A stretch of DNA of 64,000 nucleotides, taken from NCBI RefSeq assembly GCF_044324875.1, contig NZ_CP172185.1. One strand, given 5' to 3'. This document shows positions 1 to 3,000 of this stretch, in pieces. Position numbers: made by a program. The stretch is from Escherichia coli. GTDB taxonomy: Bacteria > Pseudomonadota > Gammaproteobacteria > Enterobacterales > Enterobacteriaceae. Within the stretch, counting starts at the first letter, position 1; every line of letters begins with the position of its first letter.

Positions 1-3000
1 CCGGAATCGGCAGAATAAACAAAATACTGACCGTCATACTGCTCAGCCCTAATACCGCGCCCATCAGCACGCCGGAGCAGGCTTCAAAGGCGGCAATCCC
101 GGCCAGACCGCCAATCAGCATCAGCAAATAACAGTTAAAACCGCTGTTACCGAAAAGCGTTTTATAACTGGTAAGCAGGCGCGTGCGCGGTGCGTCGACC
201 GGACGTGTTTCCGGCATCCAGCGGGCCATACTGAAGGTCACACCGGCGCAAAGTACCAACAAAAAGAGATAACAGGCGCGCCAGTTCCACATCGTATCCA
301 GCAGACCACCGATTAGCGGTGCGAGCAACGGACTGACAAGAATCCCCATGTTTAACAAGCTGTTAGCGTGGCGCAACTGTGTCCGTTCATATAAATCACG
401 CGGCAAAGTACGCGCCATTACACCGCCAACGCCGGTGCCCATGCCCTGCATCGCGCTGGCGGCAATCAATACCGTCAAACTGGAGGTCGTGACCGCGACC
501 AGCGTTGCCAGCATAAAAATGGACATTCCGACGAGGATCACCGGTCGGCGACCGACACGGTCGGAAATTGGGCCATAAAACAGCTGTGAGACACCGTAAG
601 TCAGCAGATAAGCGCCCATTACGCTCTGCACCGCCCCTTCACGGACGTTGAGATCGCGCGCCATATCGGCAATAGCTGGAATATAAATGGTTTGCGCCAT
701 CTGACCGACGGCCACGAGTAATACCAACATCAATAACAAATTGACGTTTCTATGCCTTTTCATTATCACGGATGCTTTTATAAAAATAATTAGAATAAGT
801 CACTACGCATTCCCATAAATGCGGGAGAGGAATCTATCACATTGATAAATGTTAGCCAGATATACGCCAGGAATGGGGAATTGTTTAGCGGCAGAATATG
901 TAAACAAAAGCGGCAATAAATGTTGCCGGGAGGGATGGTAGGGCGGATAAGATGCATCAGCATCGCATCCGACACCAACCCGCACGCTAAATATGAAAGG
1001 GGAGCGGTTACCCGCTCCCCTTTGGTGCGACTTGAATCTGAATTACTTCAGGTATTTCAGAACAGCATCAAGCAGTTGCAGTGCTGCAACAATGAGTTTG
1101 AGGATAAGAATGGCGATATCCACCAGGCTCATACGCGTCTCCTGTGGTTCAGGAGCACTGCCAGCTGACGTACCTTTCCGCTGCCTGTTGCCAGCTGTTG
1201 TGCACGCGGTATCTCAAGGAGAAACGTTGTGCTCGTTGACATAACACAGTGTGCTCACGCGGGGTTAAGGCGCTGACGGCACCACCCGTTTCAGCCAGGA
1301 CTTAGTGCGCCGGGTAACGATGCGGCCCCCGCATAACACATTGCGTACAGTGATATTATAGAAGTTTACTGTATAAATAAACAGTAATGTTTGGACAAAA
1401 CGCAAACTGTGATCGATACTCAACTATGCACTAATTACGTCAAAATTCGTGCCGAAATTGCGCGTTCTGCGCGGAACACGTATACTTTCTGTGTTGACAT
1501 AATACAGTGTGCTTTGCGGTTACCAGCCGCGGGCGGCTGACGAAACCTCGCTCCGGCGGGGTTTTTTGTTACCTGCAGTACAGTACAAAACGTGATCAAC
1601 CCCTCAATTTTCCCTTGCTGAAAAATTTTCCATTGTCTCCCCTGTAAAGCTGTGCTTGTATAAATATTGTTAAACACAAAACCAACAAGGTCCCCAATGA
1701 CTACTTCCATGCTCAACGCAAAACTACTACCAACTGCGCCATCCGCCGCAGTGGTCGTCGTGCGTGTGGTGGTGGTCGTCGGCAATGCGCCGTAGGGACT
1801 GGAACAACACACGATTCCAAAACCCCGCCGGCGCAAACCGGGCGGGGTTTTTCGTTTAAGCACCTCCCGGAAAGTCGGCCCAGAAGAAAAGGACTGGAGC
1901 ATGGCAAGTTCGGGCACAACATCAACGCGTAAGCGCTTTACCGGCGCAGAATTTATCGTTCATTTCCTGGAACAGCAGGGCATTAAGATTGTGACGGGCA
2001 TTCCGGGCGGTTCTATCCTGCCTGTTTACGATGCCTTAAGCCAAAGCACGCAAATCCGCCATATTCTGGCTCGCCATGAACAGGGCGCGGGGTTTATCGC
2101 TCAGGGAATGGCGCGCACCGACGGTAAACCGGCGGTCTGTATGGCCTGTAGCGGGCCGGGTGCGACTAACCTGGTGACCGCCATTGCTGATGCGCGGCTG
2201 GACTCCATCCCGTTGATTTGCATCACTGGTCAGGTACCCGCCTCGATGATCGGCACCGACGCCTTCCAGGAAGTGGACACCTACGGCATCTCTATCCCCA
2301 TCACCAAACACAACTATCTGGTCAGACATATCGAAGAACTCCCGCAGGTCATGAGCGATGCCTTCCGTATTGCGCAATCAGGCCGCCCTGGCCCGGTGTG
2401 GATAGACATTCCTAAGGATGTGCAAACGGCCGTTTTTGAGATTGAAGCACAGCCCGCGGCGGCAGAAAAAGCCGTCGCGCCCGCCTTTAGCGAAGAAAGC
2501 ATTCGTGACGCAGCGGCAATGATTAATGCTGCCAAACGCCCGGTGCTTTATCTGGGCGGTGGTGTGATCAATGCGCCTGCGCGAGTGCGTGAACTGGCGG
2601 AGAAAGCGCAACTGCCTACCACCATGACTTTAATGGCGCTGGGCATGTTGCCAAAAGCGCATCCGTTGTCGCTGGGTATGCTGGGGATGCACGGCGTGCG
2701 CAGCACCAACTATATTTTGCAGGAGGCGGATCTGCTGATTGTTCTCGGCGCGCGTTTTGATGACCGGGCGATTGGCAAAACCGAGCAGTTCTGCCCGAAT
2801 GCCAAAATTATTCATGTCGATATCGACCGCGCAGAGCTGGGTAAAATCAAGCAGCCGCACGTAGCGATTCAGGCGGATGTTGATGACGTGCTGGCGCAGC
2901 TGATCCCGCAGGTGGAAGCGCAACCGCGTGCAGAGTGGCACCAGTTGGTGGCGGATTTGCAGCGCGAATTCCCGTGTCCAATCCCGAAAGCGTGCGATCC

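What the first reader, a model, noticed from the sequence alone, without database searches (positions are those of the whole stretch)
1043..1567. tisB/istR toxin-antitoxin locus with a 21-bp direct repeat that creates the antisense target
A TisB-type toxin ORF (one substitution, N2S, relative to recalled K-12) lies on the minus strand. A perfect LexA box sits at 1369-1384. The 21-bp segment GTTGACATAA(C/T)ACAGTGTGCT appears at 1234-1254 (inside the presumed tisAB leader) and again at 1492-1512 (inside the presumed divergent sRNA). Because the two transcripts run in opposite directions, this direct DNA repeat yields complementary RNAs, which explains how a non-overlapping sRNA can pair with the toxin mRNA.
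Basis: partly seen in the sequence, partly recalled or inferred. Interest (0 to 1): 0.4.

Follow-up and report, generated by a model that had tools for sequence, protein, structure and literature searches.

The report
Known tisB/istR toxin-antitoxin locus
This is the well-studied E. coli tisB/istR-1 toxin-antitoxin locus, and the 21-base repeat is the already published site where the small RNA IstR-1 pairs with the toxin mRNA, so the finding is correct but ordinary.

Summary
The 21-nt direct repeat is real (20/21 identical). The TisB ORF (N2S relative to K-12), the LexA box (CTG-N10-CAG at 1369-1384) and a full-length IstR match (Rfam RF01400, 147.5 bits) are all present. The gene order is the canonical E. 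coli one: emrD, tisB, istR, ivbL, ilvB.

Copy 2 is the 5' end of IstR-1 (+ strand). Copy 1 lies in the tisAB leader (- strand). The two RNAs can form a 21-bp duplex (20 Watson-Crick pairs plus one G·U, -33.5 kcal/mol).

In 24 other enterobacterial species both copies are conserved well above their flanks. Two positions change in both copies together.

None of this is new. The 21-nt complementarity, RNase III cleavage and ribosome-standby competition were published in 2004-2019. A 2008 paper already calls the sequence "the 22-nt istR repeat". N2S is the majority E. coli TisB variant.

Verdict: already known, low interest.

The parts
996..1023 (-). tisAB intrinsic terminator hairpin (12-bp stem, GTAA loop), followed on the minus strand by UUUCAUAUUU
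   Evidence: Perfect inverted repeat I1. Its position fits the 359-nt tisAB RNA quoted in PMC2577331. Assigning it as the terminator is inference.
1043..1132 (-). tisB CDS (29 aa plus stop), TisB N2S variant
   Evidence: ORF list; Pfam PF13939 at 37.6 bits; RefSeq annotation of the identical MEI003 sequence as tisB; one coding difference from K-12.
1138..1143 (-). tisB Shine-Dalgarno AGGAGA (TCTCCT on the + strand)
   Evidence: Read from the sequence. AGGAGA is listed as the 100% conserved tisB RBS in PMC11264685. It is predicted to be mostly paired in all mRNA forms (P unpaired 0.17-0.20).
1129..1242 (-). tisA ORF (37 aa), part of the tisB 5' UTR; its ATG lies inside repeat copy 1
   Evidence: ORF list. 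The literature says it is not translated (PMC2826370). The ORF is not conserved across genera: the ATG is lost in 11 of 27 sequences and frame or length differs in most others.
1235..1255 (-). Repeat copy 1: the IstR-1 target and single-stranded ribosome standby region of tisAB mRNA (RNA: AGCACACUGUGUUAUGUCAAC)
   Evidence: 19 of 21 columns are invariant in 24 sequences (the window plus 23 full-length species loci), mean identity 0.978, against 0.574 for the segment between it and the tisB SD. Literature.
1133..1348 (-). tisAB 5' leader. The primary 5' end is inferred at about 1346-1348, which puts the +42 processing site near 1305-1307 and the +106 RNase III site near 1241-1243, inside copy 1
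   Evidence: The transcription start is inferred from the -10 TATAAT and the published 359-nt RNA length. The +42 and +106 species come from PMC6690012. Coordinates are not measured in this strain.
1355..1360 (-). tisAB promoter -10 (TATAAT on the minus strand)
   Evidence: Read from the sequence. TATAAT is listed as the tisB -10 in PMC11264685. 5 of 6 columns are invariant across species.
1367..1386 (.). LexA box TACTGTATAAATAAACAGTA (CTG-N10-CAG at 1369-1384), shared by the divergent tisAB and istR-2 promoters
   Evidence: CTGTAT...ACAG is kept in all 25 species loci that cover it. LexA control is from the literature.
1392..1420 (+). istR-2 promoter (TGGACA, 17-nt spacer, GATACT)
   Evidence: Promoter scan. 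The same hexamers are listed for istR-2 in PMC11264685.
1428..1567 (+). IstR-2 (140 nt), LexA-controlled long form containing all of IstR-1
   Evidence: K-12 ncRNA annotation transferred through the ungapped alignment. The Rfam model covers 1438-1567.
1458..1486 (+). istR-1 constitutive promoter (-35 TTGCGC at 1458-1463, 17-nt spacer, -10 TATACT at 1481-1486)
   Evidence: Read from the sequence. The hexamers are as listed in PMC11264685. GTATACTT is invariant across species.
1493..1567 (+). IstR-1 antitoxin sRNA (75 nt if it starts at G1493; the K-12 RefSeq annotation maps to 1495-1567, 73 nt)
   Evidence: The predicted fold has a free 5' tail (nt 1-12, P unpaired at least 0.94), then two hairpins, the second being the terminator.
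1493..1513 (+). Repeat copy 2: the 5' pairing segment of IstR-1 (GUUGACAUAAUACAGUGUGCU)
   Evidence: 15 of 21 columns are invariant across species. Changes are compensated or G·U-compatible in most species.
1541..1567 (+). IstR intrinsic terminator (GC-rich hairpin plus U6)
   Evidence: Rfam structure line; terminator scan hit at 1550-1562 plus T-run; fold.

Best explanation
Window 996-1567 is the chromosomal type I toxin-antitoxin module tisB/istR-1 of E. coli.

Proposed mechanism:
1. DNA damage removes LexA from the box at 1367-1386. This induces the minus-strand tisAB mRNA, and also IstR-2 on the plus strand.
2. The primary mRNA is translationally inert. Removing its first 41 nt exposes a single-stranded region about 100 nt upstream of the structured tisB ribosome-binding site. 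That region is repeat copy 1 (1255 to 1235 on the minus strand). 30S subunits, through protein S1, load there on standby.
3. IstR-1 is transcribed constitutively from its own promoter. It starts with repeat copy 2 (1493-1513).
4. Because the two genes are divergent, the direct DNA repeat makes the IstR-1 5' end complementary to the standby region. The result is a 21-bp duplex of 20 Watson-Crick pairs and one G·U.
5. Duplex formation blocks standby loading, and RNase III cuts within the duplex. This leaves the inactive +106 mRNA, so the membrane-depolarising peptide TisB is not made unless induction outruns IstR-1.

What is shown here: the sequence elements, their arrangement, the complementarity and its conservation. 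What is taken from published K-12 experiments: transcription, processing, standby loading and RNase III cleavage.
For: - Identity of the parts: TisB matches Pfam PF13939. IstR matches Rfam RF01400 at 147.5 bits against a gathering score of 45, over model positions 1-130. The K-12 alignment has 98% mean column identity, and the annotated tisB, IstR-1 and IstR-2 map onto the window. Synteny is emrD-tisB-istR-ivbL-ilvBN.
- Repeat not chance: only two matches in 64 kb at up to 3 mismatches, and 0 of 100 shuffles gave any.
- Pairing: the duplex of the two 21-mers is -33.5 kcal/mol. In a scan of the window in 400-nt tiles, the tisAB leader was the best non-self partner of the IstR-1 5' 30 nt at -45.2 kcal/mol; the next best tile gave -28.9.
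- Accessibility: IstR-1 nt 1-12 are predicted unpaired (P at least 0.94). The same 21 nt inside IstR-2 are mostly paired (mean P unpaired 0.29). This fits reports that IstR-1, not IstR-2, is the inhibitor.
- Comparative evidence: a degenerate tisB pattern retrieved 26 species loci from Escherichia, Citrobacter, Salmonella, Leclercia, Enterobacter and Raoultella. All 13 loci tested carry a divergent Rfam istR match.
- Conservation: both repeat copies are islands of conservation, with mean column identity 0.978 and 0.954 against 0.57-0.79 in the neighbouring non-coding segments.
- Covariation: among 9 distinct sequence types, 98.4% of cells pair, and two pairs change on both sides (position 7 A-U to G-C, position 16 U-A to C-G). 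The two widespread one-sided changes, at positions 11 and 20, give G·U. Sliding the register drops pairing to 20-45%.
- Literature: 21-nt complementarity, rescue by IstR-1 and RNase III dependence (PMC4147584). Standby mechanism and the +1, +42 and +106 species (PMC6690012). 'The 22-nt istR repeat' (PMC2577331).
Against: - Nothing contradicts the explanation, but no transcription or cleavage data exist for this strain.
- My folds show only a modest rise in target accessibility from the +1 form to the +42 form (mean P unpaired 0.31 to 0.42). The published structural switch is therefore not clearly reproduced by thermodynamic prediction alone.
- The K-12 RefSeq annotation starts IstR-1 two bases later, at the position matching 1495. 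That would leave 19 rather than 21 paired bases.
- Three Citrobacter species (L009, L014, L021) carry an uncompensated C·A mismatch at position 7.
- The covariation rests on few independent events, possibly only one per position.
Confidence: 0.96

Rival explanations
1. The two 21-mers are conserved as DNA elements rather than as RNA pairing partners. They could be two binding sites for one protein, or promoter -35 elements, since each copy contains TTGACA.
For: Each copy contains the consensus -35 hexamer TTGACA (1236-1241 and 1494-1499). Two sites bound by the same protein could also change together.
Against: - The promoter scan finds no matching -10 partner for either TTGACA; its only promoter-like site is the istR-2 promoter.
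- The widespread one-sided differences are exactly those that give G·U in the RNA duplex: copy 2 C to T at positions 11 and 20, in 15 species loci plus the window. A DNA-motif model does not predict this.
- Published experiments show IstR-1 binding, RNase III cleavage in the duplex and competition with 30S subunits at this sequence.
Confidence: 0.02
2. The repeat is a chance match or a neutral remnant of a local duplication, and regulation of tisB does not depend on it.
For: Short two-copy repeats are often chance. A further weak similarity lies next to copy 1: 1253-1266 matches the IstR terminator half at 1550-1563 in 12 of 14 positions, and 8 of 2000 shuffles did as well. That could hint at an old duplication.
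Against: - 0 of 100 shuffles gave any match to the 21-mer at up to 3 mismatches.
- Both copies are far better conserved than their flanks across six genera, and two positions covary.
- The adjacent 14-nt similarity decays to 8-11 of 14 in other species, so it is not maintained.
- The literature shows functional dependence on the pairing.
Confidence: 0.01
3. The LexA-induced long form IstR-2, rather than IstR-1, is the RNA that uses the repeat to control tisB.
For: IstR-2 contains the whole repeat (1428-1567 covers 1493-1513). It also includes T1492; K-12 has T at the position matching 1234, which gives a 22-nt match there. Deleting the istR-2 promoter lowered persister levels in one study (PMC2826370).
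Against: - In the predicted IstR-2 fold the 21 nt are largely sequestered (mean P unpaired 0.29), whereas IstR-1 has a free 5' tail.
- The literature states that IstR-2 does not repress tisB translation (PMC11264685; PMC2826370).
Confidence: 0.03

Closest known systems
tisB/istR-1 type I toxin-antitoxin locus of E. coli K-12 MG1655 (b4618 / b4616)
   Same: [quoted passage not shown] Mean column identity over 1030-1600 is 98%.
   Different: - TisB N2S. This is the majority E. coli allele, about 85% of loci (PMC11264685).
- C instead of T at 1234, so the DNA repeat is 21 nt rather than 22 nt.
- Two A-to-G changes in the first IstR-1 hairpin turn U-A pairs into U·G pairs.
- A few other intergenic SNPs.

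There is no structural or organisational difference.
Other type I TA loci with a divergent, non-overlapping antitoxin sRNA: shoB/ohsC, zorO/orzO, dinQ/agrB
   Same: Each has a small hydrophobic toxin with a long 5' UTR. The sRNA is transcribed divergently nearby, and its 5' end has 18-21 nt of complementarity to the UTR because of a short direct DNA repeat. RNase III is involved in the zorO/orzO case (PMC3919570; PMC4147584).
   Different: The toxin families and sRNA sequences differ. Among these other loci only dinQ is reported to be SOS (LexA)-regulated. Standby-site competition has been shown experimentally only for tisB.
Classical cis-antisense type I TA loci (hok/sok, ldr/rdl, ibs/sib)
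   Same: An RNA antitoxin represses translation of a small membrane toxin by base pairing, often followed by RNase III cleavage.
   Different: In those loci the antitoxin is transcribed from the opposite strand of the toxin gene itself, so complementarity is 60 nt or more and needs no repeat. Here the genes do not overlap, and pairing is limited to the 21-nt repeat.

Membership tests
tisB/istR-1 type I toxin-antitoxin system | 29-aa hydrophobic TisB-family toxin ORF | tested here: met
   Pfam PF13939 TisB_toxin at 37.6 bits (cut-off 25), E 2.1e-9. 28 of 29 residues identical to K-12 TisB. Annotated as tisB in the identical MEI003 sequence.
tisB/istR-1 type I toxin-antitoxin system | IstR sRNA gene transcribed divergently from tisAB, without overlapping it | tested here: met
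   Rfam RF01400 at 147.5 bits (gathering score 45), model positions 1-130 of 130, at 1438-1567 on the + strand. The K-12 IstR-1 and IstR-2 annotation maps to 1495/1428-1567. The inferred tisAB 5' end (about 1348) and the IstR-2 5' end (1428) are about 80 bp apart.
tisB/istR-1 type I toxin-antitoxin system | LexA (SOS) box between the divergent tisAB and istR-2 promoters | tested here: met
   TACTGTATAAATAAACAGTA at 1367-1386, unique in the window. The CTG/CAG arms are conserved in 25 species loci. LexA binding itself was not tested.
tisB/istR-1 type I toxin-antitoxin system | About 21 nt of complementarity between the 5' end of IstR-1 and the tisAB leader, upstream of the tisB RBS | tested here: met
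   The direct repeat at 1235-1255 and 1493-1513 is 20/21 identical. The duplex is -33.5 kcal/mol with one G·U. The target ends 102 nt upstream of the tisB AUG. Covariation is seen at 2 pairs.
tisB/istR-1 type I toxin-antitoxin system | Chromosomal position between emrD and ivbL-ilvBN | tested here: met
   Annotated neighbours in MEI003 and K-12. The IvbL leader peptide at 1697-1795 matches Pfam PF08049.
tisB/istR-1 type I toxin-antitoxin system | Expression of both RNAs, +42 processing, RNase III cleavage at +106, and standby-site competition | not testable with these tools
   Known only from K-12 experiments (PMC6690012; PMC4147584). My folds give only a modest +1 to +42 accessibility change, 0.31 to 0.42.
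tisB/istR-1 type I toxin-antitoxin system | Toxicity of the encoded peptide and its rescue by IstR-1 | not testable with these tools
   The literature reports that TisB N2S is toxic, and more so than K-12 TisB at low induction (PMC11264685). Not tested for this strain.
Divergent, non-overlapping type I TA architecture (tisB/istR, shoB/ohsC, zor/orz, dinQ/agrB) | sRNA encoded divergently, with limited (18-21 nt) complementarity to a long toxin 5' UTR through the sRNA 5' end | tested here: met
   Geometry and repeat as above. The class is defined in PMC3919570 and PMC4147584.

The most novel reading that the evidence does not exclude
The most novel reading still open concerns a partial third copy of the repeat core, CATAACACATTG at 1332-1343. 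It lies at the extreme 5' end of the primary tisAB transcript and is removed by +42 processing.

This copy could act as a second, weaker IstR-1 docking or decoy site on the unprocessed mRNA. Together with the weak similarity between the copy-1 flank and the IstR terminator half, it could also mean the target arose by repeated local duplication of an istR segment.

The evidence is thin. The third copy is 11/12 identical to copy 1. It is conserved in Escherichia, Salmonella and most Citrobacter, but not in Leclercia, the C. youngae-like group, or the Enterobacter and Raoultella loci.
Probability: 0.04. Interest if true: 0.3.

Novelty: already known. Interest (0 to 1): 0.07.

Why it matters
tisB/istR-1 is the reference example of ribosome-standby control and of SOS-induced persister formation. 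Recognising it correctly matters for annotation, because RefSeq PGAP annotates tisB here but not istR. No new biology follows from the finding. The repeat, its antisense role, the LexA control and the N2S allele are all published.

The cross-species comparison made here adds a little. Both repeat copies covary, and the tisA reading frame is not conserved. This independently supports the published view that selection acts on the RNA-RNA pairing and standby sequence, not on a TisA peptide.

Tried and rejected
I used a degenerate DNA pattern for TisB residues 12-26 instead.
- Unconstrained RNAduplex of full IstR-1 against the leader over-extends to 70 nt at -78 kcal/mol. Shuffled IstR-1 reaches -76 kcal/mol, so that number is meaningless. 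I used only the 21-mer duplex and the comparison across window tiles.
- Folding the +1, +42 and +106 forms did not clearly reproduce the published opening of the standby region (0.31 against 0.42). This is inconclusive, not contradictory.
- The promoter scan picked up only the istR-2 promoter. The tisAB and istR-1 promoters were placed by reading the hexamers listed in PMC11264685.
- A 14-nt similarity between the copy-1 flank (1253-1266) and the IstR terminator half (1550-1563) looked non-random in this strain (8 of 2000 shuffles). It is not maintained in other species, so I rejected it as functional.
- The low-scoring Rfam P6 hit at 1821-1878 (20.6 bits against a gathering score of 50) was rejected. 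It lies just downstream of ivbL and probably reflects the hairpin of the ilvB attenuator terminator.
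Full report
**1. What is in the sequence**

Reading 900-1800 and listing ORFs shows a 29-codon minus-strand ORF at 1043-1132. It encodes MSLVDIAILILKLIVAALQLLDAVLKYLK and matches Pfam TisB_toxin (PF13939, 37.6 bits, cut-off 25).

The repeat finder reports a two-copy direct repeat of 21 nt, 95% identical:
- GTTGACATAACACAGTGTGCT at 1235-1255
- GTTGACATAATACAGTGTGCT at 1493-1513

A search of the whole window with up to three mismatches finds only these two sites, and none in 100 shuffles. 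The LexA-type palindrome TACTGTATAAATAAACAGTA lies at 1367-1386, with its CTG-N10-CAG core at 1369-1384. It is unique in the window.

**2. What it is**

- Organism: window 1000-1620 is 100% identical to E. coli strain MEI003. It is found at 80% coverage or more in 4150 of 5426 complete E. coli genomes, always on the chromosome.
- Context: the annotated neighbours are yidF, emrD, ysdE, tisB, ivbL, ilvB and ilvN. K-12 MG1655 has the same arrangement and also annotates the ncRNAs IstR-1 and IstR-2.
- Comparison with K-12: the ungapped alignment has 98% mean column identity. Both repeat copies and the LexA box are identical in the two strains. The one coding change is tisB codon 2, AGC against AAC, i.e. 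N2S.
- sRNA coordinates: transferring the K-12 annotation gives IstR-2 at 1428-1567 and IstR-1 at 1495-1567. The literature size of 75 nt would start IstR-1 at G1493, seven bases after the -10 TATACT at 1481-1486.
- Rfam: the istR model (RF01400) matches 1438-1567 on the + strand over its full length at 147.5 bits against a gathering score of 45. It is one of only two gathering-level RNA hits in the window.
- Promoters: the hexamers listed for E. coli in PMC11264685 are all present. They are tisAB -10 TATAAT (1360 to 1355 on the minus strand), istR-2 TGGACA/GATACT (1392-1420, also found by the scan), and istR-1 TTGCGC/TATACT (1458-1486).

**3. How it works**

Copy 2 is the first 21 nt of IstR-1 on the + strand. 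Copy 1 lies in the minus-strand tisAB leader, 102 nt upstream of the tisB AUG. A direct repeat read from opposite strands gives complementary RNAs. The two 21-mers form a continuous duplex of 20 Watson-Crick pairs plus one G·U at position 11, at -33.5 kcal/mol.

In a scan of the window in 400-nt tiles, the tisAB leader was the best non-self partner of the IstR-1 5' end, at -45.2 kcal/mol. The next best tile gave -28.9.

IstR-1 is predicted to have a free 5' tail (nt 1-12, P unpaired at least 0.94), followed by two hairpins. In IstR-2 the same 21 nt are mostly paired (mean P unpaired 0.29). This agrees with reports that IstR-2 does not repress tisB.

The remaining steps come from published K-12 experiments, not from my tools:
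- The +1 mRNA is inert.
- Removing 41 nt exposes the single-stranded standby site, where 30S subunits and S1 load.
- IstR-1 pairs across that site.
- RNase III cuts the duplex, giving the inert +106 mRNA (PMC6690012; PMC4147584).

If the transcription start is at about 1346-1348, then +106 falls at 1241-1243, inside copy 1 as expected. I inferred that start from the -10 and from the published 359-nt RNA length. My folds show only a modest increase in target accessibility from +1 to +42 (0.31 to 0.42). I treat that as inconclusive.

**4. Independent comparative evidence**

TisB was too short for the protein-based locus finder. I therefore scanned one genome per species with a degenerate pattern for TisB residues 12-26. 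This returned 26 loci from Escherichia, Citrobacter, Salmonella, Leclercia, Enterobacter and Raoultella. All encode a 29-aa TisB homologue. All 13 loci tested carry a divergent Rfam istR match at 92-145 bits.

In a MAFFT alignment of the loci, both repeat copies stand out:

| Segment | Mean column identity | Invariant columns |
|---|---|---|
| Copy 1 (1235-1255) | 0.978 | 19 of 21 |
| Copy 2 (1493-1513) | 0.954 | 15 of 21 |
| Between copy 1 and the tisB SD | 0.574 | 41 of 102 |
| Spacer 1387-1427 | 0.644 | 10 of 41 |
| IstR-2-specific part (1428-1492) | 0.794 | 26 of 65 |

I treated the IstR-1 5' end and the target as a 21-pair helix and counted pairs across the 9 distinct sequence types:
- 98.4% of cells pair.
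- Two pairs change on both sides: position 7 A-U to G-C in four types, and position 16 U-A to C-G in one.
- Two pairs vary only to G·U (positions 11 and 20).
- Three types have single mismatches.
- Sliding the register by 1 to 3 columns drops pairing to 20-45%.

Caveats: the double changes may reflect few independent events. Three related Citrobacter loci (L009, L014, L021) carry an uncompensated C·A at position 7.

**5. Comparison with what is known**

This is the same locus as K-12 tisB/istR-1, not merely something similar.

[quoted passage not shown] 2004).
- Weel-Sneve et al. 2008 found the sequence by a repeat search. [quoted passage not shown]
- The class of type I loci with divergent, non-overlapping sRNAs and 18-21 nt of pairing is also described. 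[quoted passage not shown]
- N2S is the consensus TisB in about 85% of E. coli loci and has been tested for toxicity (PMC11264685).

**6. Verdict**

It is already known, so interest is low. The only additions here are modest. Cross-genus covariation of the two repeat copies supports the published pairing. The tisA ORF is not conserved as a reading frame, which supports the published view that the conserved element there is the RNA target and standby site.

Noticed in passing
window 40387-64000 (junction near 40386): The window is colinear with E. coli MEI003 only up to about 40386, where the match ends inside the 3' part of tRNA-Sec (selC). The rest is a genomic island on the selC side carrying Ag43, YfjI, a GTPase, DUF4942 and IS elements. 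Its best matches include avian pathogenic strain BEN2908. ARAGORN finds no intact tRNA in the window, so the intact selC must lie beyond the window end.
   Followed up: partly
window 51058-51180 (+): There is a full-length Rfam isrC (RF01387) match at 147.4 bits inside the selC-side island. The island also carries an Ag43 autotransporter gene.
   Followed up: no
window about 22045-26715: This stretch contains long internal tandem repeats with a period of about 291 bp, seen as a ladder of offset BLAST hits. The corresponding MEI003 gene is the 9.7-kb inverse autotransporter adhesin iatC, which lies next to an ETT2-like type III secretion remnant (eilA, translocon genes). Identity to MEI003 here is only about 94%.
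   Followed up: no
window 1129-1242 (-), and loci L003-L028: The tisA ORF is not conserved across genera. Its ATG, which lies inside repeat copy 1, is ACG in 11 of 27 sequences. The ORF is 46 aa in a different frame in 10 sequences, and is truncated in Salmonella diarizonae and in one E. coli. This fits reports that tisA is not translated.
   Followed up: yes
window about 1197-1230 (-), and loci L003-L028: An indel of about 34 nt, apparently a hairpin, lies between the IstR-1 target and the tisB SD. It gives three spacing classes between target and AUG: 67-68 nt (15 loci: 12 of the 17 Citrobacter loci and all 3 Leclercia), 101-103 nt (Escherichia, Salmonella, 3 Citrobacter) and 117-120 nt (Enterobacter, Raoultella). 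The standby distance is therefore not fixed at about 100 nt.
   Followed up: partly
window 1332-1343: A third, partial copy of the repeat core (CATAACACATTG, 11/12 identical to copy 1) lies at the 5' end of the primary tisAB transcript. It is conserved in Escherichia, Salmonella and most Citrobacter, but not in Leclercia, the C. youngae-like group, or the Enterobacter and Raoultella loci. Its function is unknown and it may be chance.
   Followed up: partly
window 1304-1323 and 1065-1080 (-): The 20-nt and 16-nt tisAB segments reported as antisense to uxaA and dinD mRNAs (PMC2577331) are both present unchanged in this strain, by reading the sequence. The uxaA-antisense segment spans the inferred +42 processing site.
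   Followed up: no
window 1514-1540 (+): Relative to K-12, the first IstR-1 hairpin has two A-to-G changes on its 3' arm (GCCGCGGGCGGCTG against GCCGCAGGCGACTG). Each converts a U-A pair into U·G, so the Rfam consensus structure is preserved.
   Followed up: no
L001 (MEI003) and window 1428-1567: The RefSeq PGAP annotation of the identical MEI003 sequence lists tisB but no istR ncRNA. K-12 annotates IstR-1 as 73 nt, whereas a start at G1493 gives 75 nt. This is an annotation gap and a 5'-end discrepancy, not a matter of biology.
   Followed up: partly
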